A stretch of 64,000 nucleotides of DNA from the human T2T-CHM13v2.0 reference genome, Homo sapiens. Shown piece after piece: positions 1-40,100 of this stretch. Under the pieces are notes generated by a model. The model did no database searches and was not told where the DNA came from. It saw nothing but the letters and a program-made list of their open reading frames with translations. The stretch's first letter is position 1; every line of letters starts with the position of its first letter. A program made the translations under genes and the position numbers. The stretch lies in assembly GCF_009914755.1 (NCBI RefSeq), contig NC_060925.1. One strand, given 5' to 3'.

Positions 1-410
1 TTTTGATTACTGAAAGCATTTCTTTCATTTTGTCTAATTGAACAAATTTATGCAAAGAATTGGGGACTTATTCCTCATTAGTATTGTTCATCTACAGGTG
101 GAAATAAGTTCAAGTATGTGTTGCAGTATTAATTAAAGGCAAAGTGACCTACTTGTATTATATTCTGAATAAATAATGAATGAAAAATAGAAGAATGACT
201 CAGTTATTTTAGACTCTTAAGTTATACAGATTTATGTAATGTCTATTTTGATTTTTATTAATTAACCATGAATTTATCCTACTCTAGTATTGAGAAAAAG
301 AAAATGGAACTATGGGCCCTTCTTTCAAATGATACTTAGGAATGTATCTGCACTGTATCCAGAAGGTCAGTTACATGCCCTGTTACCAATTGAATTCTGC
401 TTCACTAAGG

Positions 411-663
411 ATAATAATAACTGACATTGAGTGCATGGCACATGATGGGCACTGTGCAAAATGCTTTGACATGTTGTGTTCATTTAATCCACACAATGGT
501 CCTATGCTATAAAAACAGTTAATATCTACTTTTTTATAGATGAGGAAACTCCAGCTTAGAGAGATTAGGTAAGCTGTCTAAAGTCACCCTGCCTGTAAGT
601 GTTTAGAGCTGAGATTCACATTCACGGAGTCCTCCTGAAGAACCTAGGATTAACCACTATGTT
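411..663 (-). mobile_element. MIR SINE, degraded
   Basis: ATAGATGAGGAAACT...AGAGAGATTAGGTAAGCTGTCTAAAGTCAC resembles the reverse complement of the MIR core; the flanks are MIR-like. Ends approximate. Confidence 0.75.
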
Positions 664-913
664 GAACAGCTTTGGCCTGCAAATTACATGCTTCTTAGAA
701 AATGAGGCTATTATCTATAATCTGTATTTTTTAATATCAATTTTATTCCTTTCAACTGGTCAGTTATATCATAAATTCCACGGAATTTTTATAGAACCCA
801 TGCTTTGCCACTCTTGTATCCCTATAGTGGTGCTGGGGAATAAAGACACATTTATTTGCCTTAGCACTCTTTCTTTCTTTTTTTTTTTTTTGTAATTTTA
901 CTTATAAATTGGG

Positions 914-1012
914 AGGGTGGCCATAAAATTTATCATCCAACCACTGAAAGTGAAAGAAGGTGCTATTTATGATTTCCCCAGGACAACAGGCAGAAAATAC
1001 TCTCTGGTCATA
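914..1012 (+). mobile_element. hAT-Blackjack MITE remnant (MER94-like)
   Basis: AGGGTGGCCATAAAATTTATCATCCAA...GAAAGTGAAAGAAGGTGCTATT...GGACAACAGGC...TGGTCA resembles the MER94 consensus as I recall it. Confidence 0.5.
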
Positions 1013-1099
1013 CATTTAGCCTGCAGAGAGAATTTAAGTACATTATGGATAGTCTGCCATAGACACAGCAGTAGCATCTGCAACAAGTGAATGATAAAT

Positions 1100-1177
1100 A
1101 TGTATACATATGTAACTAACCTGCACATTGTGCACATGTACCCTAAAACTTAAAGTATAATAATAATAAAAATAAAA
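1100..1177 (+). mobile_element. Extremely 5'-truncated young L1PA 3' end with A-rich tail
   Basis: ATGTATACATATGTAACTAACCTGCACATTGTGCACATGTACCCTAAAACTTAAAGTATAATAATAATAAAAATAAAA is the L1PA2-4 3' terminus. No clear TSD. Confidence 0.9.
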
Positions 1178-1670
1178 CAATCAACTTTCAGGGAAATAGC
1201 CATTTTTAGAAAACATAGGGAAATAGCCATTTTAAGTAAATGTCAGGTGAGTCTCACTATAAACTGCCTATAATGAGACAGTTTAGTAAGCTTAAAGTTT
1301 TATTAATTCCCAAAAGCATCTAATAGGTTGAGATTTATTGGCATTCAAAAGTATGATTCACAAATTGTAAGAGAAGCTGGCAAAGTCATGTTTTTGCTGG
1401 CCTATGGAATGCACCGGAGAATTCTTTGGACTTGCATATCTTCTGATTCATGTGTCATAATAATAATGTCTGTGTGATTCTCAGTGAATCATGAATGCGT
1501 GATTATGCTTTTACAATAAAATTTGTTTATGAAGTCAGTGAAGATAATTCATGAATAACATTGTCAAAATTACTTTTAATCACATGATTAACCTGCAACA
1601 ACTATGTATATTATTTTTTATGTGTTGGCTTATTATGTTCAAAAACTTTGTTTATAAAAACTGATTTTGC

Positions 1671-2707
1671 AGAGGGAGGAGCCAAGATGGCCGAACAGGA
1701 ACAGCTCCGGTCTACAGCTCCCAGCGTGAGCAATGCAGAAGACGGGTGATTTCTGCATTTCCATCTGAGGTACCGGGTTCATCTCACTAGGGAGTGCCAG
1801 ACAGTGGGCGCAGGTCAGTGGGTGCAGTGCACTGTGCGTGAGCCAAAGCAGGGCGACACATTGCCTCACTCTGGAAGCGCAAGGGGTCAGGGAGTTCCCT
1901 TTCCTGGTCAAGGAAAGGGGTGACAGACGGCACCTGGAAAATCGGGTCACTCCCACCCGAATACTGCACTTTTCCAATGGGCTTAGGAAACGGCACACCA
2001 GGAGATTGTATCCCGCACCTGGCTCGGAGGGTCCTACGACCACAGAGTCTCACTGATTGCTAGCACAGCAGTCTGAGATCAAACTACAAGGCAGCAGCGA
2101 GGCTGGGGGAGGGGCGCCCGCCATTGCCCAGGCTTGCTTAGGTAAACAAAGCAGCCAGTAAGCTCGAACTGGATGGAGCCCACCACAGCTCAAGGAGGCC
2201 TGCCGGCCTCTCTAGGCTCCACCTCTGGGGGCAGGGCACAGACAAATAAAAAGACAGCAGTAACCTCTGCAGACTTAAATGTCCCTGTCTGACAGCTTTG
2301 AGGAGAGCAGTGGTTCTCCCAGCATGCAGCTGGAGATCTGAGAACGGGCAGACTGCCTCCTCAAGTGGGTCCCTGACCCCTGACCCCTGAGCAGCCTAAC
2401 TGGGAGGCACCCCCCAGTAGGGGCAGACTGACACCTCACATGGCCAGGTACTCCTCTGGGACAAAACTTCCAGAGGAACAATCAGACAGCAGCATTTGTG
2501 GTTCATGAAAATCCGCTGTTCTGTAGACACCGCTGCTGACACCCAGGCAAAGAAGGTCTGGAGTGGACCTCTAGCAAACCCCAACAGACCTGCAGCTGAG
2601 GGTCCTGTCTGTTAGAAGGAAAACTAACAAACAGAAAGGACATCCACACCCAAAACCCTTCTGTACATCACCATCATCAAAGACCAGAGGTAGATAAAAC
2701 CACAAAG
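1671..2707 (+). promoter_or_regulatory. L1 5'UTR (sense and antisense promoter region; YY1 site CAAGATGGCC at 1683-1692)
   Basis: Sequence homology to the L1PA 5'UTR. Many CpGs have decayed; activity cannot be judged from sequence. Confidence 0.8.
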
Positions 2708-3716
2708 ATGGGGAAAAAACAGAGCAGAAAAACTGAAAACTCTAAAAAGCAGAGTTCCTCCTCCAAAGGAACGCAGTTCCTCACCAGCAACGGAACAAAG
2801 TTGGATGGAGAATGACTTTGATGAGTTGAGAGAAGGCTTCAGACAATCAAACTACTGCAAGCTACAGGAGGAAATTTGAACCAAAGACAAAGAAGTTGAA
2901 AACTTTGAAAAAAATTTAGACGAATATATAACTAGAATAACCAATACAGAGAAGTGCTTAAAGGAGCTGATGGAGCTGAAAGCCAAGGCTCGAGAACTAC
3001 GTGAAGAATGCAGAAGCCTCAGGAGCCGATGCGGTCAACTGGAAGAAAGGGTATCAGTGGTGGAAGATGAAATAAATGAAATGAAGCAGGAAGGGAAGTT
3101 TAGAGAAAAAAGAATAAAAAGAAACTAACAAAGCCTCCAAGAAATATGGGACTATGTGAAAAGACCAAATCTACATCTGATTGGTGTACCTGAAAGTGAC
3201 GGGGAGAATGGAACCAAGTTGGAAAACACTCAGCAGGATATTATCCAGGAGAACTTCCCCAATCTAGCAAGGCAGGCCAACATTCAGATTCAGGAAATAC
3301 AGAGAACGCCACAAAGATACTCCTCGGGAGGAGCAACTCCAAGACACATAATTGTCAGATTCACCAAAGTTGAAATGAAGGAAAAAATGTTAAGGGCAGC
3401 CAGAGAGAAAGCTCAGGTTACCCACAAAGGGAAGCCCGTCAGACTCATAGCTGATCTCTCGGCAGAAACTCTACAAGCCAGAAGAGGGTGGGGGCCAATA
3501 TTCAACATTCTTAAAGAAAAGAATTTACACCCCAGAATTTCATATCCAGCCAAACTAAGCTTCATAAGTGAAGGAGAAATAAAATACTTCACAGACAAGC
3601 AAATGGTGAGAGATTTTGTTACCACCAGGCCTGCCCTAAAAGAGCTCCTGAAGGAAGCACTAAACATGGAAAGGAACAACTGGTACCAGCCACTGGAAAA
3701 TCATGCCAAAATGTAA
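2708..3716 (+). pseudogene. L1 ORF1p, disrupted
   Basis: Starts ATGGGGAAAAAACAGAGC. The C-terminal 186-aa frame KRPNLHLIGVPE...ENHAKM (3156-3716) matches ORF1p; upstream stops and indels break the frame. Confidence 0.93.
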
Positions 3717-3779
3717 AGTCCATCAAGACTAGGAAGAAACTGCATCAACTAATGAGCAAAATAACCAGCTAACATCATA

Positions 3780-7585
<3,806 letters not shown>

Positions 7586-8568
7586 ATAATGAGAACACAT
7601 GGACACAGGAAGGGGAACATCACACTCTGGGGACTGTTGTGGGGTGGGGGGAGGGTGGAGGGATAGCATTAGGAGATATACCTAATGCTAAATGACGAGT
7701 TAATGGGTGCAGCACACCGGCATGGCACATGCATACATATGTAACTAAACTGCACATTGTGCACATGTACCCTAAAACTTAAAGTATAATAATAATAAAA
7801 AAACAAAAAAAACCTGATTTTGCTATTTAATTTTTAATTTACTTTAGAAAATAATGTAGCACAATGTTAGATTTATTACATATGTAACAATACTATTTAA
7901 TGCTGCACAATCATAGCACATAATGTTTATAACTATAGCATTTTATGAACTGTCTTTGTGCTTTTAAAGAAAGAAATATCATAATCTTTAGTTTTATTTA
8001 AGTGAAGGATCATGGATTTGTTTTGACATACTTTCTAATAATTATAATGTTTTCCTTTGTAAGCATGTGTGCCTAAATTCTCACTGAGGGCTTTCTATAC
8101 TGTGTAAATAGCACAGAAAATGTCTATATAGGAATGTTTAAAAAACATTTTCTGTTGCATGTAACTCAAAAGATACATCTAATATGCAGTTAAATTGAAT
8201 AAAATAGTACTTTGTGAATTAAAAATTTAAGTATTGGAAAACATTGTCATGCTTTTTGTTTTTAATAGTGGTTTAAAAGAGAATATAAAGGCACTAAACA
8301 GAAAACACTAGTTTTGTTTTTCTTTGTGTATACTCACAAGTAATTTAAATCATGTTGAACAATATGTCCTTCTCAAGCCTAGTGAAAAAGTGCACCTAGA
8401 CCTGGGACTCTAGTTTAACACATCAAACCAGAAGTCTTTCAGAAAGGAATTTTCAAAATGTCCCAAAATATATTTGAACAATTTAAAAGGCAGTAATGAA
8501 CTTCATAAAAATAGATATTTTAAGTTAAAATGATGCAGAGAACAAATTTTCTTGTTGTTCTTGTTAAA

Positions 8569-14998
<6,430 letters not shown>

Positions 14999-17900
14999 TG
15001 TTCTGGGTAATTTTTTTTTTTTTTAATTTTGCCATGTTAGTTTAGGTTGATTCAGCACAAATGCTTGCAAAATATTTCAAAATTTATATTCTATGAAAAT
15101 GTCTACTTCTACAAAAGAGAATCAATATTCCAAGTAGGGCATTTTAATGTTTCTAACAGTTAAGAGGAAAAAATATTAAGGGGAATATACAATATTTCAC
15201 TATGTATTTTATTTGACTCTTATTTGAAATACTTATATGCTAAAATGATTAATGACTGGTAAATAAGTGTGTGTGTTCTAAAGCATGTGAGGCCAGCTTA
15301 AAGGAAGTGAGTAATTGTGTTTTTTGGTGACTGCATTAGAAAACAATTATTGGGAGATCAACTTCTGGAAAGACTGAGTAGATATGCTTTCCCCCACTCC
15401 TGGTAAGCACAGCTAACAACATTAGGTCTTATAAAACAAACAGTAAAAGATTCTGACTTACACAGCTACTGTGGCCCCACCTCCACCTCCAGCAGCAAAG
15501 CCTCCCCAAGTAGGGAGCTGGGAGCCAAGACTGTCACCTGAACTGGTGATAAGGAACCCCTTTCATTCCTATTAAGAAGCCTGAACTCCCACTCTGGATG
15601 TGGAGGAACCAGGTACCCCTCTTACCCTGGATTTTTAATGGAGGCAAAATGAGGAATTTAGATTTCTAACTCTACCTGACAGTAATAAGGTGAAGTGAGT
15701 ATCTCTTTCCCCAGTAATGTGGTGTCAGAGGAGGCCTACTAAACCAATTTAGATAAGATCTAGAATCTCATAATATCTAAAATATTAGGTTTCAATAAAA
15801 AACATACCAAGAGTCATGAAATTCTCAACTTGATTAAGAAAAAAACCAATAGATGCCAAAACCAAAATGAATCAAATGTTAGAATTACCTAACAATTATT
15901 TAAAGCAGCCATCATCAAAATGCATCATGAGCAGCTAGGAACAAATGAAAAATAACCTCAGCGAATAGAAAGTGACAGAAAACAAATAGATGATGTAAGA
16001 GATAAAGAAAATAAAGGTTATCTATTCTGAATAACAGAGGTAATATAGACTGGAAAAAAAATGCAAAATGCACAGAGCCTCAGGCCCTGTGAGACTTGTA
16101 ACAAATGATATACCATTTGTATTATTGGTATTGCAGAAGGAGAGGATAAAATGTTGGGCTGAAAAGATATTCAAAGTAATAACGATTGAAAATTTCCCCA
16201 ACTTTAACAAGTGCCATTAACCTACACATTGAAGAAACTGAGCAAACCCCAAACAGAATAAACTGAAGGAAATCCAGGTCAAAACACACCATAATCAAAA
16301 TTATGAAAACTAAAGATAGAGAACCTTAAAAGCAGAGATAGAGAAACAATACCTCACCTACTGGGGAAAACCAAATGATGACAGTGGATTTCACATCAGA
16401 AACTATGGAAGACAAAAGAAGTATCACATTTTCCAAATGCTCCTAGAAAAGTAGAGTAGGCAGTCCAAAGTTCTATATCTGATGAAAGAATCTCTGAATA
16501 ATGAAATAGAAATCAGGATATCCTTAATAAAAACAGCTAAGAAACTGGCAGACCTACCTTAAAAAAATGGTTAAAGAAGGTTCTTCAAAGAGGGAGGGAA
16601 TCATAAAAGAAGGATTTGGAGAACATCAGGAAGGGAGAAATAACACTTTCTTGAGGGAGTAGAAGCATCAAATATAATAGACAGTCTTCCCTTCTTAATT
16701 TTTCTCTAATTTTTAACTATTAAAGCAAAAGTTACAACACTGATCTGGTTCTCAATGTAATGTAAATGTAAAGGACATATTGAAGATACTTATAAAGGAG
16801 CAAGATAAAGGGACATAAAAGTAGGTAAGGTTTTTAAGCTTCACTCAAATTGGTAAAATTTTAATATCAATAAATTGTAACAAATTATATTTAAAGTTAC
16901 ATAATCAGTTATATAATACCCAGAACAACCACTAAGAAAGTATGGATAAATCAAAATGGAATTCTAAAAAAGTTCTAGTAACTCACAGGAATGAAGGGAA
17001 AACAGTAAGGAAAAACAGAAGAAATGGAAAATAAAAGTAATCGTGGACTTAGGTTCTAATAAATTAATAATTACCCTAAATCTAAATAGGCTTCTTATAC
17101 CAATAAGACAGAGATTGGTAGAGTGGATGAAAAAGAACCCCACTATGTGCTGCCTACAAGAAACTCAATTCAAATGGAACAATATAGGTAGGTTGAATGT
17201 AAAAGGATGGAAATGTATTTGCCATATAAGCATTAATCAAAAGCAAGCAAGAGTGACTATATTGATATCTCATAAAATGGATGTCAGAGCAAAGAAAATT
17301 ACCAGGAACAAAAAGGGACATTACATAATAAAAGGACCCACCAAGAAAATATAGACTAAACAATAGAGTTGCAAAATATGTGGTAGACCATCAGCAAAAA
17401 CTGATAGAACTGAAATAATAAATAGACAAATTTACAATTATGTTTGGAGACATCAACAAGCCTTTTCCAACAACTGTTAGAACAACTAGACAGGAACAGA
17501 GCAAGTATATAAAACAACACCATCAATGAACATCATCTAATTTATATGTTTAGAATACTAAAAACAGCAGAATACACACATACATATAGAACATTTACCA
17601 AGATAGACTATATCCTGGACTTTAACACCAAAAAATATAAAAGAATTGAAATCATAGAGTATGTTTTGTGACAAAAATGGAATCAAACTATACATTAGTA
17701 ATAGAGATAACAGAAATATATCCACACTTGGGTGTTAAAAGACACACCTGTAAATAACTCTTGAGTCAAGGCGGAAGTCTTAGGGGAAATTTTAAAAGTA
17801 AATGGGATAGAAAGAAAATGAAAATTTAACACATCAAAAATTTGGGCATGCAGCTAAAGCAATGCTGACATTTATAGTGTTAAATTCTTATGTTAAAAAA

Positions 17901-19799
17901 GAGAAAGAGCCTCAAATCCACCTAAGCTCCCACACCAAGAAACTAGAAAATGAAGAACAAAAATCCAAAGCAAGCTAAAGGAAGAGAATTATGAATATAA
18001 CAGCAGAAGTCAATGAAATTAAATACACAAACAGCAGGGAAAATCAATGAAACAAAAAGATGGTTCTTTGGAAATAACGATAAAATTGGCAAAGCTCCAA
18101 CAAAACTGACAGCAAAAAAAGACAGAGAGACAAATTACCAATACCAGAAATGAAACAGGCAATATAATTATAGACCCTATAGATATCAAAAGGATAATAA
18201 AGAAATTGTATGAACAACTCTACACACATAAGTTTGACAATTTAGATGAAATGGGCTATACAACTACCACATAAAGTACCAAGGATTATTCAGTATGAAA
18301 AAGATAATTGCATAGCTCTACAACTATTAAGGAAATTCAATTCATCATTTAAAAACTACTAAAAAAGAAATATCTGAGTCTGGATCGGTTCACAGGAGAA
18401 TACCATTAAACATTTAAAAAAGAAATAACACAAGATCTGCACAATTTCTTCCAGAAAATGAAAGGGGGGAACATTTTGCAAATCACTTTATGAAACAATG
18501 TTACTTTTATACCCAAATAAAAGTACAAAATGAAGAAAACTATAAACTAATATCTCTCATGAATACAGAGCAAAAATCCTTTATAAATTATTAGAAAATA
18601 GCATTCAGCAATATATAAACAGAGTTATACATAATGCCCATTGGGAGTTCATCCTAGAGATGTAAAATTGGTCCAATATTTCAAAACAATTATTGTAATT
18701 CACCATATTACCAATATAAAGGAGATAAATCACACTTTCATATCAACTGAGGCAAAATAAGCATTTGACAAAATTTGACACTCATTTATGATAAAAGCCC
18801 AGAAAATAAGGAAAAGAAACACCCTCAACTTGATGAAGAATATTTACAAAAATCTTATAGCTAATATCTTACCTAGTGGTGAAAGTAGAATGCTTTCCTC
18901 TTAAGATGAGAACAATGCAGTGGTGTTTTCCAGTCCCACTGCTAGTCAACATATTACAGGAAGTTCTAGGAAGCTCAATAAGGTAAGAAAAGGAAATAAA
19001 AGACATCAATTAGAAAGGAAAATATAAAGCTGTTCCTACTTGCAGATGCCACAATGGTTTACAAAAAAAATAAGGGACCTATAAAAATACTCCTAGAACT
19101 GATGAGTTCAGCGATGCCAAAAGTTCTAAGTAAAACATATAAAATTAATTGTATTCCTACATGAGAGCAATGGCCCTGTGGAAACTAAAATTAAGAATAC
19201 AATAGTATGTATAATCTTTTTAAAAAACTGAAGTACTTAGGTAGAAATCTAACAAAATATATACAGGACTACTATGATGTAAACTACAAAACAGTGATGA
19301 AAGAAAGAAGGTTTAAATAAATAGACATCCAGTGTTCATGGATTGGAACACTCAACAGAGTAAAAATGTCATTTCTCCCCAAGGTAATACACATACTTTA
19401 TACACTTATTATAAAAATCTTAGCAAGAATTTTTAAAGACAAAACTAAAGTTATTTTAAAATTTATTAGGAAAGGAAAAGGAAATAGAAGAGCTGAAACA
19501 ATTTTTGAAAAATAGAAATGAAGTTGGAGAAATCACTTCATCTTATTTTAAGAGTTATTATGTAACTACCTTAATCAAGACTGTGTGATACTAGCTGAAG
19601 GATAGAAAAACAGATCAATGAAATAGAAAAAGAAACCAGAAATAGTTCCACGCAAGTATTGCCAAAGAGTCTTTTCAACAAATGTTGCTGGAAAAATTGT
19701 ATATCCAGAAAGATGACCCTCACCTTAAATCTCACACATTAGCCAAAAATCATCTCAAACTGGATTATAGATTTAATGATAAAGCAAACTGTAAACCTG

Positions 19800-20280
19800 T
19801 TCCACCCATGTTTATAGAAGCACTTCTCACAAAGCCAAGAGGTGGAAGCAATGCAAATGTCCAAATGTCATTGACAGATGAGTGGATAAGCAAAATGTGG
19901 TATATTCATACAATGGAACATTATTCAGTCTTTAAAGTGGAGGGAATCCTGTCACATGCTACAACATGGATGAACCTGAAGGACACTATGCTTGGTGAAA
20001 TAAGCCAGTCACAAAAAAATCTGTATGGTTCCACTTATATGAGGTATCTAAAGTCATCAAATTTATAGAAATATAAAGTAGAATAATGGTTACTAGGGGA
20101 TGGGGGAGGGAAGAAGAGTAATTGGTTAATGGGTATAGAGTTTAAGTTCTGCAAGAAAATGTTCTGGAGATCTGTTTCACAACAATGCAAATATACTTAA
20201 CATTACTAAACAGTACACTTAAAAATAGTTCATCTTAACCATGGCAAGTTTTATGGTTTTTAAAATTATAATTTAAAAAG
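19800..20280 (+). mobile_element. Nested L1MB-like 3' fragment
   Basis: A second ORF2 end and 3'UTR (DEWISKMWYIHTMEHYS; GGTTAATGGGTATAGAGTTT...GTTCTGGAGAT) interrupts the host, whose ORF2 resumes at ~20290. Confidence 0.7.
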
Positions 20281-24216: not shown

Positions 24217-25215
24217 TGAATGCTTTTTTATATATTTTTTGGCCATTTGTATGTCATCTTTGGAGAAATGTCTATTCAAATCCTTTGCCCATTAAAAATT
24301 ATTTTTTGATAATGAGTTGTAGAAGTTCCTTATATATTTGGAGATTAACCCATTATTGGATATGTGGTTTGCAAATATTTTAACCCATTCTATAGGCTGC
24401 CTTTTCACTCTGTTGATTGGTTCTTTTGCTATACAGAAGCTATTTAGTCTAAAGGAGTTTCACTTGTTCATTTTTGTTGTTATTGCCTGGGCTTTTGTCA
24501 TATACAAGAAATCATTGTCAAGACCGACATCCAGAAGCTTTCCCTCTATGTGTACTAAGAGTTTTACAGTCTGGGGTCTTACATTTAAGTCTTTATTTTG
24601 AGGTGATTTTTATATATGGTGTGAGAGGAGAGTCCAATTTATTCTTCTGCATGTGAGTATCTGGTTTTCCTAACACTATTTGTGGAAGAGACATTTTTTA
24701 CCCCATTGTGTATTCTTGGCACACTTTTTGAAGATTGGTTGGTTGTATATGCATGATTTTATTTCTGGGCTGTCTATTCTGTTCCATTGATCTATATTTC
24801 TGTTTTAACTTCAGTAAAGAAATATAATTAATTCAGCTGGAATTTTGATGGGGATTGCATTGAATCTGTTGAACACTTTGGGTAGTACGGACAAGTTAAC
24901 ACTATTAATTCTTCCAACTCAAGAGCACTGGATAACTTCATTTTTTGTGTGTGTCCCATTTATTTTATTACCGTTTATAGTATGTAGTTTAATTTCATGG
25001 TGCTTAGAAAAGATACTTGGTTTAATTTCAACCTTCTTAAATTTGTTAAAACTTGTTTTGTGACATATCCTGTAGAATATTCCCTGTTTACTTGAGAAGA
25101 ATGCATATTCTGCTACCAGTGAGAGGAATGTTTGTTACACATCTGTGAGGTAAATTTGGCCTGTAGCATTGTTCAAGTCTGTTGTTTTCTTATCTTTGAG
25201 TTCACTAATTCTTTC

Positions 25216-25585
25216 CTTTCTTTTTTTTTTTTTTTTGAAGAAGTATTGAATTTTATTGAAAGCCTTTTCTGCATCTATTGGGATTAAAATGTGGTTTCTG
25301 TCTTTAGTTATCTCTATGTGATGAATCACATTTATTGATTTGGGTATGTTGAACCAACCTTGCATCCTAGGGATAAAGCTGAGTTGGTTGTGGTGTATCA
25401 GCTTTATTATGTGCTGCTGGATTTGGTTCACCAACATTTTGTGGAGGATTTTTGCATCAATACTCATCAAGAACACATATTCATTTAATGTCATAAATTT
25501 CCCTCTAAGGAATGTTTTAGTGGAATCCTATAAATTTTAATACATTATGTTTTCTTATTATCATTTAAATGAAAATATTTTTCCA
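25216..25585 (-). other. 3' transduced segment and final poly(A) of L1-c
   Basis: Lies between the left TSD (25198-25215) and the L1-c 3' end. T-rich tail at 25216-25236; minus-strand AATAAA at 25252-25257. Confidence 0.88.
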
Positions 25586-25789
25586 TTTTTTTATTATACT
25601 TTTAGGTTACATATGCACAATGTACATGTTAGTTACATATGTATACATGTGCCATGTTGGTGTGCTGTACCCATTAACTTGTCATTTAACAATAGGTATA
25701 TCTCCTAATGCTATCCCTCCACCCTCCCACCAACCCACAACAGGCCCCACTGTGTGATGTTCCCCTTCCTTTTTCCATCTGTTCTCATT

Positions 25790-29610
<3,821 letters not shown>

Positions 29611-29673
29611 TATGATGTTAGCTGGTTATTTTGCTCGTTAGTTGATGCTGTTTCTTCCTAGCCTCGATGGTCT

Positions 29674-30671
29674 TTATGATTTGGCATGTTTTTGCAGTGG
29701 CTGGTCCCAGTTGTTCTTTTCCAAGTTTAGTGCTTCCCTCAGGAGCTCTTGTAGGGCAGGCCTGTTGGTGACAAAATCTCTCAGCATTTGCTTGTCTGTA
29801 AAGGATTTTATTTCTCCTTCACTTATGAAGTTAGTTTGGCTGGATATGAAATTCTGGGTTGAAAATTCTTTTCTTTAAGAATGTTGAATATTGGCCCCCA
29901 CTCTCTTCTGGCTTGTAGAGTTTCTGCTGAGAGATCAGATGTTAGTCTGATGGGCTTCCCTTTGTGGGTAACCAGAGCTTTCTCTCTGGCTTCCCTTAAC
30001 ATTTTTTCCTTCATTTCAACTTTGGTGAATCTGACAATTATGTGTCTTGGAGTTGCTCTTCTCGAGGAGTATCTTTGTGGTATTCTCTGTATTTCCTGAA
30101 TTTGAATGTTGGCCTGCCTTGCTAGATTGGGGAAGTTCTCCTGGATAATAACCTGCAGAGTGTTTTCCAAGTTGGTTCCATTCTCCCTGTCACTTTCAGG
30201 TACACCAATCAGATGTAGATTTGGTGTTTTCACATAGTCCCATATTTCTTGGAGGCTTTGTTTGTTTCTTTTTATTCTTTTTTCTCTAAACTTCTCTTCT
30301 CACTTTATTTCATTCATTTGGTTTTCCATCACTGATACCCTTTCTTCCAGTTGATCGAATGGGCTACTGAGGCTTGTGCATTCATCACATAGTTCTCGTG
30401 CCTTTGTTTTCAGCTCCATCAGGTCCTTTAAGGACTTCTAGTTAGGCATTCATCTAATTTTTTTTTCAAGCTTTTTAAGTTCTTTGTCATGGGTTCAAAC
30501 TTCCTCCTTTAGCTTGGGGTAGTTTGATTGTCTGAAACCTTCTCTCAACTCATCAAAGTCATTCTCTGTCCAGCTTTGTTTCATTGCTAGTGAGGAGCTT
30601 CATTCCTTTGGAGGAGGAGAGGCACTCCAATTATTAGAGTTTCCAGTTTTTCTGATCTGTTTCTCCCCCAT
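29674..30671 (-). pseudogene. L1 ORF1p, disrupted
   Basis: MGEKQIRK start; the KTPNLHLIGVPE...RISYPAKL fragment at 29823-30233. Confidence 0.9.
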
Positions 30672-33663
30672 CTTTGTGGTTTTATCTACCTTTGGTCTTT
30701 GATGATGTTGACGTACCGATGGGGTTTTGGTGTGGACGTCCTTTCTGTTTGTTAGTTTTCCTCTAACAGTCAGGACCCTCAGCTGCAGGTCTGTTGGAGT
30801 TTTCTGGAGGTCCACTCCAGACCCCATTTGCCTGGGTATCAGCAGCGGAGGCTGCAGAACAGCAGATATTGGTGAACAGCAAATGTTGCTGCCTGATTGT
30901 TCCTCTGGAAGTTTTGTCTCAGAGGAGTACCCGGCCATGTGAGGTGTCAGTCTGCCCCTACTGGGGGGTGCCTCCCAGTTAGGCTACTTGGGGGTCAGGG
31001 ACCCACTTGAGGAGGCAGTCTGTCTGTTCTCAGATCTCCAGCTGCATGCTCGGAGAACCACTACTGTCTTCAAAGCTGTCAGACAGGGACATTTAAGTCT
31101 GTAGAGGATTCTGCTGCTTTTTGTTTGGCTATGCCCTGCCCCGAGAGGTGAAGTCTACAGAGGCAGGCAGGCCTCCTTGAGCTGCTGTGGGCTCCACCCA
31201 GGTTGAGCTGCTGGCCGCTTTGTTTACCTACTCAAGCCTTGGCAATGGCGGGCGCCCCTTCCCCAGCCTCACTGCCACCTTGCAGTTTGATCTCAGGCTG
31301 CTGTGCTAGTAAGGAGTGAAGCTCCGTGGGCATAGGACCCTCTGAGCCATGTGCGGGATATAATTTCCTGGTGTGCCGTTTGCTAAGACCACTGGAAAAG
31401 TGCAGTATTAGGGTGGGAGTGACCCGATTTTCCAGTTGCCGTCTGTCATCCCTTTGTCTAGGAAAGGGAATTCCCTGACCCCTTGCACTTCCCAGGTGTG
31501 TCGATGTCTTGCCCTGCTTTGGCTCACTCTTGGTCTTGGTGCACTGCTCCCTCTGTCCTCTGCCCACTTTCTGACACTCCCCAGTGAGATGAACCCAGTA
31601 CCTCAGTTGGAAATGCAGAAATAACCCGTCTTCTGCATTGTTCATGCTGGGAGCTGTAGACTGGAGCTGTTCCTATTCAGCCATCTTGGCCCCACCCCTC
31701 CGAGTTCACTAATTCTTTCTTCTGCTTGATTAAATATGCTCCTGAACACTTACATTGAATATCTTAGTTCAGTTATATTCTTCAGTTCCAGAATTTTTGT
31801 TTGGTTCTTTAAAAAAAAATTTCTATTTGTTTACATTCTTAGTTTACTTACGCAACATTTTTCAGAATTTGTTTAATTGTCTGTGTTCTCTTGCAACTCC
31901 TGAGCCTCTTGAAGATGACTATCTTGAATTCTTTGTCAAATAGTTTTTATATCTCCCTTTCTTTAGGATCCATTACTAGAGATTTGTTTTCTTTATTTGA
32001 TTGTATCATGCTTTCCTGATCTTTTCCTATTTTTTGTAGCTTTGTATTGATGTCTGGAGATTTGAAGAAACAACTAACTCTTCTAGCAATTCTCCATAAA
32101 GTGGCTTTGACAGAAAAAAATTTCCTGATCAGCCTGGCTAGGGATTCCAGGCCTGTGTTCCTAGTTGCCCGGGTATCTAGTCTTTTTGTTTTTAAAGCTC
32201 ATGGTTTCTTGCTCCTGCTGGTGTTAGACTGTGTCAGTTCCTTTAGTGCTCCGTGTAAGGCAAGACAGGCACTGACTCCTTGAGAAGTGTGCTGAAAGGC
32301 CAGGGACATTGGAGTCACATTCCACTCATCTTCTTTCCTGAGGGAGAAGTCTCAGTTCTGTACTGTTTCCAATCTTGCAGCTCTGTGCTACCTGTAGGGG
32401 GGGTGCCCGCCCCTTTGTCTTTGTTCCAAGCTATCCCAGTAATCTGAGCTATGCTGCTTCCTTCAGCACTTTGTTTGTGGTAACACAGAAACTTGCCTCT
32501 TGTGGAGCATATTGAAAAGCTGGGAAGCTAGGCTTATGGTTCACCCTCTCTTTACTCCCTTTGTAGAAGTCACGGGCCAGGCAATCTCTCTCTGTGCTGA
32601 GCTGTGCCAGTTTCAGGGAAAGGCTGATGTGGATAAAGTGAAATTACTCATATCCATTTCAGTGTGGCTGTTCTTGGTTTTGTGCTCATGTGTTGTGCTG
32701 CACCTCTTTACCTACATTGTAGACTTCTCATAATGGTATTTTCATGTATATATTATTGTTTGCTGTTTCTCTGGGGGAACTAAATGCTGGGACTTCCTAT
32801 TCTTCCATTTTGTGGGCATCACTCTTTCAAAGTTTATTTTTTAATGTTATGAAAGCACACGGAGGTGATAGAAACTGTAAATCTACTTATACAGAGGAAA
32901 CCACAGTTAAGAAAATTAAACCTCAGCAATGAAACATCAATTTCTGTTCTTACAGTTATTAAGTAGTGCCTTACTATTTTCTGTTATTCTGAGCTTAATA
33001 ATTCCTGGTGAAGTACAATTTGAGCTCAGATCCCAAAACTTGTTCATTCAAATCGGTTGTAGAAAGAAACAATGATGTTCCCTTATATAACGGGAACAGG
33101 CATTATTTCATTTTTGGCTATTAATCTCACTCTAAAACATATGAAATTAATCTGTCATTCTTACTTTTCTGTTTTAATCATATCAATTTGCCAAAGTGCT
33201 AAATGTTTATGTCTGTGTATCCCTGTGCACACAGAGTAAATGGGCTTCAATTAATATAATGGAATGTTTCAGAAAAGCAATCAGTATCCATAAGATTGAG
33301 CTTAAGCTGGAAGCTTCTCAGTCCAAATGACTGCCGTTAAAAGAATACAGGAGCTGAATGTCCTTGCATTTGGCGGACTTAAGAAAGAAGGATGCCAAAC
33401 GAATGAACTATGACATGATTGAATTTTTGCAAATTCCTGAGAACTGTGGCAAAATGTTTTCCTTTCATAACCTTTGAACTGCTAAGATCATAAATAAGAA
33501 CTTAGATGTTTTTTTACCAATTTTCCTTTTACACTACACACAATAGAATGTGGTTGCATTTGGTATGTTATATATGCCAGAACTGTTGCTAACCAGTATC
33601 TAGTGAGGGATCGGGCATCAGCCACCATGTTCATTTGCTTTAGCCTTAGAAATACCAAGAACT

Positions 33664-37165: not shown

Positions 37166-40100
37166 CATAAAATGCAAACATCCCAAAGAAGTTTCTGCCA
37201 ATGCTTCTGTTTAGTTAGGTGACGTTATCCCATTTCCAACGAAATCCTCAGAGAGGTCGAAATATCCACTTGCAGATTCTACAAAAAGTGTGTTTCAAAA
37301 CTGCTCCATGCAAAGGAATGTTCAGCTCTATGAGTTAAACTCAATCGTCACAAAGTATTTTCTGAGAATGCTTCTGTCCAGTTTTTACAGGAAGCTATTT
37401 CCTTTACTACCGTAGGCCCCAAAGCGGTCCAAATCTCCACTTGCAGATTCTACAAAAAGAGTGTCTCAACCTCAACTCACAAAGGAAGGTTCAAATCTGT
37501 GAGTTGAATGCCAACATCACAAAGAAGTTTCTGAGAATGCTTCTGTTTAGTTAAGTGAGGTTTATCCCGTTTCCAATGAAATCCTCAGAGAAGTCCAAAT
37601 ATCCACTTGCATATTCTAAAAAAAGTGTGTTTCGAAACTGCTCCATCAAAAGGAATGCTCAGCTCTGTGAGTTAAACTCAATCATCACAAAGAATTTTCT
37701 GAGAATGCATCTGTCTTCTTTTTAGATGAAGATATTTCCTTTACTACGATAGGCCTCAAAGAGGTCCAAATCTCCACTTGCAGATTCTACAGAAAGAGTG
37801 TTTCAAACCTGAACTATCAGAGGAAGGTTCAACACTGTGAGTTGAATGCAAACATCACGAAGAAGGTTCTGAGAATGCTTCTGTTTAGATAGGTGAGGTT
37901 TCTCCCGTTTCCAACGAAATCCTCAGAGAGGTCCAAATATCCACTTGCAGATTCTACAAAAAGTGTGTTTTGAAACTGCTCCATCCAAAGGAATGTTCAG
38001 CTCTGTGAGTTGAACTCAATCGTCACAAATTGTTTCCTGAGAATGCTACTGTCTTGTTTTTATATGTAGTTATTTGCTCTGCTGCCGTAGGCCTGAAAGC
38101 GGTCCAAATCTCCCCTTTCAGATTCTACCAAAAGTGTGTTTCCAAACGGCTCTATCAAAGGGAATGTTCAACTCTGTGACTTGAATGCAATCATCAAAAA
38201 AGTAGTTTCTGAGAATGCTTCCATCTAGCTTTTATGAGAAGATATTTCCTTTCCCACCACAGGCCTCGAAGCCCTCCAAATGTCCATTTGCAGATTCTAG
38301 AAAGAGAGGGTTTCAAGGCTGCTCTATCAAAAAGAAAGTACAACTCTGTGAGTTGAATGCAAACACCACAAAGAAGTTTCTGAGAATACTTCAGTGTAGC
38401 TTTTATGGGAAGATTATCCCTTTTCCATCGAAATCTTCAAAGAGGTCCAAATATCCGCTTGCAGATTCCACCGAAAGAGTGATTCCAAACTGCTGTATCA
38501 AAAGGAATCTTCAACTCCGTGAGTTCAATGCAATCATCACAAAGAAGTTTCTGACAATGCTTCTCCCTAGTTTTTATGTGAAGATATTTCCTTTTCCACC
38601 ACAGGCCTGAAAGCGCTGTAAATGTCCACTTGCAGACTCTACGAAAAGAATGCTTCAAAACTGCTCTATGAAAAGCAATGTTAAACTCTGGGAGTTGACC
38701 ACAAGCCTCACAAAGAAGTTTCTGAGAATGCTTCTGTTTATTTTTTATGTGAAGATATTCCCGTTTCCAAAGAAATCTTCACAGAGGTCCACATATCCAC
38801 TTGCAGATTCTACAAAAAGAGAGTTTCAAAACTGCTGTATCAAAAGGAATGTTCAACTCTGCGAGTTGAATGCAATCATCACAAAGCAGTTTCTGAGAAG
38901 GCTTCCGTCTAGATTTTACGTGAAGATATACCCGTTTCGAATGAAGGCCACAAAGTGCTCCAAATATCCACATGCAGATCCTACAAAAAGAGTGTTACAA
39001 ACGTGAACTAACAAAGGAAGGTTCAACTCTGGGCTTTGAATGCAAACATTACAAAGAAGTTTCTGGGAAAGCTTCTGTTTAGTTAGATGATGTTATCCCG
39101 TTTCCAACAAAATCCTCAGAGAGGTCCAAATATCCACTTGCAGATTCTACAAAAAGTGTGTTTCAAAACTGCTCCATCCAAAGGCACGTTCAGATCTGTG
39201 AGTTAAATTCAATCATCACAAAGTATTTTCTGAGAATGCTTCTGTCCAGTTTTTACATGAAGCTATTTCCTTTACTACCGTAGGCCTCCAAGCAGTCCAA
39301 ATCTCCACTTGCAGATTCTACAAAAAGAGTGTTTCAACCAGAACTCAGAAAGGAAGGTTCAACCCTGTGAGTGGAATGCCAACATCACAAAGAATTTTCT
39401 GAGAATGCTTCTGTCTTGTTTTTAGATGAAGTTATTTCCTTTACCACGATAGGCCTCAAAGAGGTCCAAATCTCCACTTGCAGATTCTACAGAAAGAGTG
39501 TTTCAAACCTGAATTATCAGAGAAAGGATCAACACTGTGAGTTGAATGCAAACATCACGAAGAAGGTTCTGAGAATGCTTCTGTTTAGATAGGTGAGGTT
39601 TATCCCGTTTCCAACGATATCCTCAGAGAGGTCCAAATATCCACTTGCAGATTCTACAAAAACTGTGTTTCAAAACTGCTCCATCCAAAGGAATGTTCAC
39701 CTCTGTGAGTTGAACTCAATCGTCACAAATTGTTTCCTGAGAATGCTACTGTCTAGTTTTCATATGTGCAGTTATATCCTCTACTGCCATAGGCCTCAAA
39801 GCGGTCCAAATCTCCCCTTGCAGATTCTACCAAAAGTGTGTTTCCAAACGGCTCTATCAAAGGGAATGTTAAACTCTGTGACTTGAATGCAATCATCACA
39901 AAGTAGTTTCTGAGAATGCTTCCATCTAGCTTTTATGAGAAGATATTTCCTTTTCCACCACAGGCTTCGAAGCCCTCCAAATGTCCACTTACAGATTCTA
40001 GAAAGAGAGGGTTTCATAGCTGCTCTATGAAAAGGAAAGTACAACTCTGCGAGTTGAATGCAAACATCACAAAGAAGTTTCTGAGAATGCTTCCGTTTAG

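What the first reader, a model, noticed from the sequence alone, without database searches (positions are those of the whole stretch)
25198..25595. Full-length L1-c carries a ~350-bp 3' transduction
The 18-bp TSD partner of the 5' end (31702-31719) is not next to the L1 3' end but at 25198-25215. On the minus strand the order is: L1 end with its own AATAAA (25590-25595) and a very short A run; foreign sequence at 25585-25237 (pieces of two older L1 ORF2 regions); a second AATAAA (25252-25257) 15 nt before the poly(A); then the TSD. This is the standard read-through transduction layout. It is easy to miss because the cargo is itself L1-derived. The tag should identify the source locus and any sibling insertions.
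Basis: partly seen in the sequence, partly recalled or inferred. Interest (0 to 1): 0.75.

Follow-up and report, generated by a model that had tools for sequence, protein, structure and literature searches.

The report
Parentless L1 transduction, later duplicated
A full-length LINE-1 jumping gene on chromosome 1 carries 350 extra bases that match a spot on chromosome 4 where no such element sits today, so it likely records a parent element that has since vanished; it is a clean example of an already known process.

Summary
The 18-bp repeat is exact (25198-25215, 31702-31719) and brackets a full-length L1, 349 bp of foreign sequence, an AATAAA and an A16 tail. The tag maps to one native site, chr4:13,290,545-13,290,893 (96%), where older L1 fragments run across both tag ends. 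No young L1 lies in 18 kb upstream, and the tag starts at an unscarred TTTT|A7 endonuclease-type site. The only other copy (chr5:51.20 Mb) shares the L1, tail, target repeat and flanks, so it is a segmental duplicate, not a sibling. Best reading (0.8): a full-length L1 of about L1PA4/5 age once sat at the chr4 site and was read through to an old L1's AATAAA. It produced one insertion, likely on chr5, which was duplicated to chr1 soon after. The parent was never fixed or was lost. One loose end: the chr5 junction carries TTT matching chr4 upstream of the A7, which leaves room for a tailless parent or a template switch. This is a new member of a known kind (parentless 3' transduction). Interest 0.3.

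The parts
31702..31719 (-). 5' copy of the target-site duplication; part of an older repeat that continues into 31720+
   Evidence: Exact match to 25198-25215; many unrelated old repeats align from the first bases of this 18-mer onward; chr5 duplicate has it with 1 mismatch
25593..31701 (-). Full-length L1, about 6.1 kb, 5' UTR 1030 nt (undeleted type, L1PA3 or older; L1PA4/5 by divergence, inferred); reading frames broken
   Evidence: ORF1 start at element position 1031; ORF2 start at window 29610, longest stop-free frames 414/209/236 codons; best scored relatives 91-92%
25586..25592 (-). A7 run at the L1/tag junction; same length as the A7 at chr4:13290538-13290544, which follows TTTT
25472..25585 (-). 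5' part of the transduced tag: piece of an old L1 fragment that continues upstream at chr4
   Evidence: 97% to chr4 and chr5, next best 78%; 10 of 16 unrelated old-L1 loci span the tag's 5' boundary at chr4
25237..25471 (-). 3' part of the tag: piece of a second old L1 ORF2 fragment that continues downstream at chr4
   Evidence: 17 of 17 unrelated loci span the tag's 3' boundary at chr4
25252..25257 (-). AATAAA likely used as the poly(A) signal; AATGAA on chr5, AGTAAA on chr4, so AATAAA is the inferred ancestral state
   Evidence: AATAAA in 11 of 17 related old-L1 copies, which were picked by likeness to the window's tag
25221..25236 (-). A16 tail, starting at a CA where chr4 continues ATGTT
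25216..25220 (-). Extra GAAAG, present on chr1 only; likely a later slippage copy of the start of the target repeat
25198..25215 (-). 3' copy of the target-site duplication
   Evidence: exact on chr5 at 51201143; the five bases to its left match the older repeat in 6 of 10 relatives exactly and 10 of 10 within one mismatch

Best explanation
A full-length L1 and a 349-bp tag from chr4 lie together between one target-site duplication, most likely because a parent L1 that would once have sat at the chr4 site, and is absent there now, was read through to the AATAAA of an older L1 fragment, giving one insertion that was then duplicated between chr5 and chr1. Steps: (1) inferred: a parent L1 of about L1PA4/5 age inserted at TTTT|AAAAAAA, chr4:13,290,537/8. 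(2) Inferred: transcription passed its end and two further AATAAA and was cleaved and tailed at a CA 15 nt after the third. (3) Shown by structure: L1, tag and tail were inserted as one unit into an older repeat, with an 18-bp (up to 20-bp) duplication. (4) Shown: the surrounding block exists on chr5 and chr1 with the insertion in both; direction chr5 to chr1 is inferred from the EMBP1 pseudogene. (5) Shown: chr4 has no L1 and no scar in this genome; inferred: the parent was polymorphic and never fixed in our lineage.
For: Exact unique 18-bp repeat. Tag at only three loci among scored hits: window, chr4 96%, chr5 93%; next best 87% over part of the query. chr4 is native: 10 of 16 and 17 of 17 unrelated old-L1 loci span the tag's 5' and 3' ends, 0 of 33 span its internal junction. 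No scar at the 5' boundary in 10 of 10 alignments. The tag begins at an A run preceded by TTTT, a context seen for 6 of 190, 3 of 384 and 19 of 459 A5+ runs in three control stretches. No young L1 in 27.9 kb of chr4, and the chr4 upstream flank is single-copy, next best 75%. chr5 shares both target repeats and flanks over window 1-37178. Star-like tag divergence: 5 chr1-only, 8 chr5-only, 8 chr4-only changes in 335 columns, against 8-29 (mean 17.2) chr1/chr5 mismatches per 335 columns in 47 flank windows. Parentless transductions are described: only 3 of 27 mappable dog transductions lay beside an L1 (PMC13141329, passages).
Against: The parent is not seen, so steps 1, 2 and the reason for step 5 are inferred. 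The chr5 junction reads AGTATAA-TTTT-A6, like chr4 upstream of the A7. Only 61 of 15,729 comparable L1 ends continue TTTAAAA, and 483 of 15,729 have two or more extra T. The A run between L1 and tag on chr1 is exactly the chr4 A7, leaving no separate parent tail; 508 of 15,729 ends have exactly A7. chr4 has a genomic A16 only 5 nt past the tag end, the same length as both tails. The insertion site itself is not a consensus endonuclease site. L1 divergence between chr1 and chr5 (6.7-8.8%) exceeds the flanks (4.1-5.8%), and shared changes are few (17 against 12 and 6 for the other pairings, 2429 columns); I read this as duplication soon after insertion plus CpG decay, which I did not test.
Confidence: 0.8

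Rival explanations
1. Template-switch or RNA-ligation chimera: no L1 ever sat at chr4. Reverse transcription began on a polyadenylated chr4-derived RNA and moved to the 3' end of an L1 mRNA at the shared AAT/A-run, then copied the whole L1.
For: No L1 or scar at chr4. chr5 shares TTT with chr4 upstream of the A7, rare among L1 ends at 61 of 15,729. No extra parent tail. Template switching and ligation are described for L1 chimeras (PMC13174262, passages).
Against: The chimeras in those passages have the foreign RNA 5' of the L1, the reverse of this order. The break falls on an endonuclease-type site (TTTT before the A run in 1-4% of control runs). No promoter or transcript for the chr4 site was identified, though I did not search for one. 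chr1 would have had to lose exactly TTT.
Confidence: 0.09
2. Same lost parent, but the RNA ran past the tag end and was primed internally on the genomic A16; the four bases TGTT were lost before the duplication. No new poly(A) addition was involved.
For: All three A runs are exactly 16 long, and the chr4 run lies 5 nt past the tag end. Relatives have about A5 there.
Against: Both copies lack TGTT, which needs an extra deletion. The end falls at a CA 15 nt after an inferred ancestral AATAAA, as ordinary cleavage would give (established 3'-end processing, own knowledge).
Confidence: 0.06
3. The parent sat in a paralogue of the chr4 region that has since been deleted or is absent from this assembly.
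For: Would explain the absence of an L1 at chr4 without invoking loss at that site.
Against: chr4 flanks are single-copy among scored hits. The chr4 branch (8 changes) is no longer than the chr5 branch (8), leaving little time for a separate paralogue.
Confidence: 0.03
4. DNA-level capture: chr4 sequence was copied in beside an existing L1 by break repair or gene conversion, independent of retrotransposition.
For: Both ends of the tag touch A-rich runs that could act as microhomology.
Against: The tag lies inside the target duplication, in the L1's sense, and ends at AATAAA plus tail; the L1 has no target-repeat copy at its own end.
Confidence: 0.02

Closest known systems
L1-mediated 3' transduction (described in passages of bioRxiv 10.1101/2021.07.12.451456, PMC9311842 and PMC13141329; Moran 1999, Goodier 2000, Pickeral 2000, Szak 2003 seen only as reference-list entries)
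   Same: L1, downstream genomic tag, second poly(A) signal, tail, all inside one target duplication; source on another chromosome; 349 bp lies within the 8-997 bp range reported in PMC9311842.
   Different: Fixed and old rather than L1HS and polymorphic; cargo wholly made of older L1; no parent at the source.
Parentless 3' transductions (dog LINE-1, PMC13141329)
   Same: The tag maps to a site with no adjacent L1; explained there by a parent that is dimorphic in the population.
   Different: Here the event is about as old as the L1PA4/5 expansion, so the parent is probably gone from humans rather than still segregating (inferred; no other human genomes were checked).
Transduction spread by segmental duplication (AluSx3-WaluSat, bioRxiv 10.1101/2021.07.12.451456)
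   Same: A transduced unit later copied by segmental duplication, mimicking siblings.
   Different: L1 rather than Alu; two copies only; no satellite expansion of the cargo.
RNA/LINE-1 chimeras such as U6/L1 (PMC13174262)
   Same: Two sources joined in the same orientation inside one target duplication.
   Different: In those the foreign RNA is 5' of the L1; here it is 3'.

Membership tests
L1 3' transduction | One target-site duplication brackets L1 plus tag | tested here: met
L1 3' transduction | Tag ends in poly(A) 10-40 nt after a poly(A) signal | tested here: met
   AATAAA 15 nt before A16; ancestral state supported
L1 3' transduction | Tag maps to a native locus elsewhere that continues into its own flank | tested here: met
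   chr4:13290545-13290893; a genomic A16 follows 5 nt later
L1 3' transduction | Empty insertion site lacks L1 and tag | tested here: inconclusive
   No orthologous genome was available. Indirect support: flanks rejoin into one older repeat. A local search with the joined flanks found no held locus spanning the junction (before the relevant relatives were fetched).
3' transduction with identified parent | A related full-length L1 lies directly upstream of the tag at the source | tested here: not met
   Best L1 identity 78% in 27.9 kb, all of it older fragments; not filed under this subclass
Parentless 3' transduction | Source site lacks an L1 and looks like an unscarred pre-insertion site | tested here: met
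Parentless 3' transduction | Parent present at that site in another individual or species | not testable with these tools
   Only one human assembly is held
Sibling transduction family | Same tag at independent insertion sites with different target repeats | tested here: not met
   chr5 copy has the same target repeat and flanks; no further copy, where DNA searches score only 40 candidates each
L1PA4/L1PA5 subfamily | 5' UTR keeps the 129-bp segment lost in L1PA2/L1PA1 | tested here: inconclusive
   5' UTR is 1030 nt, which fits the undeleted type described in PMC5860796 (passages); judged by length only, using a recalled ~900-nt L1HS 5' UTR
L1PA4/L1PA5 subfamily | Diagnostic 3'-end sites against subfamily consensus | not testable with these tools
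   No repeat library held; private changes about 3% per copy (74, 69, 63, 71 of 2429 columns) fit that age on a recalled scale
Template-switch RNA/L1 chimera | Foreign RNA 5' of the L1 | tested here: not met
   Tag is 3' of the L1

The most novel reading that the evidence does not exclude
The chr5 junction is the ancestral one, so the L1 end was joined to chr4 DNA at AAT|TTT with no tail and no AATAAA. Either the vanished parent was a tailless insertion without a poly(A) signal, forced to transduce with every transcript, or no parent ever sat there and this is a reversed chimera in which a full-length L1 is the 5' partner of a genomic RNA.
Probability: 0.25. Interest if true: 0.5.

Novelty: new member of a known kind. 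Interest (0 to 1): 0.3.

Why it matters
The tag pins the position of an active L1 that is no longer in the human reference, to the base (chr4:13,290,537/8), and orders four events: transduction, duplication of the EMB/EMBP1 block, a later L1 on chr1 and a later LTR-bounded insert on chr5. It also shows a class that catalogues can miss: one pipeline drops segmental duplications (PMC9311842) and another drops tags with under 25 unmasked bases (PMC13141329), and this event would probably fail both (inferred). It does not reveal a new mechanism or any sign of function.

Tried and rejected
Sibling hunt: (40 candidates scored of 3135, 96 and 10,470) and the whole-genome pattern count (13 matches within 2 mismatches: chr5 and chr1, plus 11 at two mismatches that I did not read individually) gave no independent copy. 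chr5 as the source or as a sibling was rejected because it shares the tail, target repeat and flanks. A parent further upstream on chr4 was rejected. A local search with the joined empty site gave no spanning hit among the loci then held; the question was answered only indirectly. The nearest relatives of the L1 gave identities but no sequences, so no tree was built. Szak 2003, Pickeral 2000, Macfarlane 2013 and three other look-ups by id (intended as Hoyt 2022 in journal form, Jacobs 2014 and Khan 2006; ids recalled) were not held. Paper searches listed nothing on this locus by title or abstract start. The transduction table of the T2T repeat preprint (Table S13) could not be seen, so I do not claim the event is unpublished. 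Earlier scan notes were unavailable.

Full report
Observation. The 18-mer at 25198-25215 is identical to 31702-31719, extends on neither side, and has no third match in the window within 3 mismatches. On the minus strand the L1 ends at 25593 and is followed by A7, 349 bp of foreign sequence, AATAAA at 25257-25252, 15 more bases, A16, an extra GAAAG and the repeat. Two more AATAAA lie inside the tag. The L1 begins directly after the other copy of the repeat, has a 1030-nt 5' UTR and broken reading frames.

Source of the tag. A search of the whole assembly gave three full-length hits: the window, chr4:13,290,545-13,290,893 at 96% and chr5:51,200,792-51,201,126 at 93%; the next best was 87% over part of the query (40 of 3135 candidates scored). 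The 5' part with the internal junction gave the same three at 97-100%, then 78%. chr4 is the native site. Of 16 unrelated loci of the older L1 type, 10 align across the tag's 5' boundary; 17 of 17 loci of the second type align across its 3' boundary; 0 of 33 cross the junction between the two fragments. The junction is therefore a private mark of chr4, carried into both copies.

The parent is missing. In 27.9 kb around the chr4 site, 18.4 kb of it upstream, the best match to the window's L1 is 78% and lies downstream. The old fragment crosses the tag's 5' boundary without extra sequence in 10 of 10 alignments. The upstream flank is single-copy among scored hits. The tag begins at TTTT followed by A7, which fits the L1 endonuclease consensus quoted in PMC13141329 (passages). 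A runs of five or more are preceded by TTTT in 6 of 190, 3 of 384 and 19 of 459 cases in three control stretches, and by TT in 42, 33 and 74. This is what the pre-insertion allele of a parent would look like. In dogs only 3 of 27 mappable transductions lay beside an L1, attributed to dimorphic parents.

The chr5 copy is a duplicate. It has the same L1, tag, A16 and 3' repeat, a 5' repeat with one mismatch, and flanks that align over window 1-37178, ending where a 171-bp satellite begins at 37171. The annotation places the EMBP1 pseudogene just before the window, and PMC13122177 (passages) lists EMB as its parent. That EMB lies at this chr5 position is recalled, not tested, so the direction chr5 to chr1 is inferred. 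No independent sibling appeared; the DNA searches score only 40 candidates each, so short diverged orphans could be missed.

Timing. In 335 ungapped columns of the tag there are 5 chr1-only, 8 chr5-only and 8 chr4-only changes. chr1/chr5 flanks differ by 8-29 per 335 columns, mean 17.2 over 47 windows. Four L1 copies compared over 2429 columns have 74, 69, 63 and 71 private changes; the two duplicates share 17, against 12 and 6 for the other pairings. Transduction and duplication were therefore close in time. The L1 at window 1670-7809 is absent on chr5, which shows a single target repeat there, so it came later. About 3% private change and the long 5' UTR (PMC5860796, passages) fit L1PA4/5 on a recalled scale; PMC13174262 (section 9) places these subfamilies around the ape/Old World monkey split. 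No consensus test was possible. The L1 body differs more between duplicates (6.7-8.8%) than the flanks do (4.1-5.8%); CpG decay is my untested explanation.

Empty site. No orthologous genome was available. The 18-mer is part of an older repeat that continues into 31720+. In ten relatives of that repeat the five bases upstream match the bases left of 25198 exactly in 6 and within one mismatch in all 10, and do not match the L1 start. This supports, but does not prove, an empty site without the tag. The insertion site is T-rich but not a consensus endonuclease site, and two A's shared with the tail could make the duplication 20 bp.

3' end. The hexamer reads AATAAA on chr1, AATGAA on chr5 and AGTAAA on chr4, and AATAAA in 11 of 17 related old copies chosen by likeness to the window's tag, so AATAAA is the likely ancestral state. 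Both copies end at a CA where chr4 goes on ATGTT and then A16. Ordinary cleavage and tailing is simplest. The equal length of all three A runs is unexplained and keeps internal priming alive at about 0.06.

The loose end. On chr5 the junction has TTT between the L1 end and the A run, as chr4 has upstream of its A7; chr1 does not. Of 15,729 L1 ends with the same 21-base motif, 61 continue TTTAAAA, 483 have two or more extra T, and 508 have exactly A7 (the chr5 copy is itself among the 61). Either chr5 gained a rare lookalike or chr1 lost three bases. Both are unlikely single events and two copies cannot decide between them. If chr5 is ancestral, the parent had no AATAAA and read-through was obligatory, which still falls under the main reading, or the join was a template switch. 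Known L1 chimeras have the foreign RNA on the 5' side (PMC13174262, passages), so I give the switch 0.09.

Literature seen. Passages of PMC13174262 (plus section 9), bioRxiv 10.1101/2021.07.12.451456, PMC9311842, PMC13122177, PMC13141329 and PMC5860796; other papers as search listings only. The T2T preprint reports 183 top-confidence L1 3' transductions, but its table was not visible to me and may list this locus.

Verdict. The feature is real and well supported: a parentless 3' transduction copied by segmental duplication. It is a new member of a known kind. Interest 0.3.

Noticed in passing
G000:C5:51188414-51197127 (L023, L025): 8714-bp insert inside the chr5 copy of the L1, bounded by long terminal direct repeats 90-94% alike; LTR12/ERV9-like by recall; absent from chr1, so later than the duplication.
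   Followed up: partly
window 1670-7809: Second full-length L1 on the plus strand with its own target repeat; chr5 shows the empty site, so it inserted after the duplication.
   Followed up: partly
window 14819-20180: 5.4 kb present on chr1 and absent from the chr5 paralogue; overlaps the annotated enhancer 14314-15141; insertion or deletion not determined.
   Followed up: no
window 1-1670: chr1/chr5 divergence drops to 2.6-3.6% here against 5-7% elsewhere in the block; possibly later gene conversion or constraint near the EMB/EMBP1 3' end.
   Followed up: no
window 37171-64000: 171-bp satellite begins exactly where the chr5 alignment ends; self-matches of 96-99% at offsets of about 0.27 to 5.9 kb appear from about 44000 on. 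The annotated enhancers at 37235-40069 lie in this satellite.
   Followed up: no
G000:C4:13290899-13290914 (L002 about 1855-1870): A16 run where related old L1 copies have about A5, right after a TT; an expansion or a bare poly(A) insertion.
   Followed up: partly
window 8561-13880: Older L1 on the minus strand, about 86% to the L1 studied here, shared with chr5.
   Followed up: no
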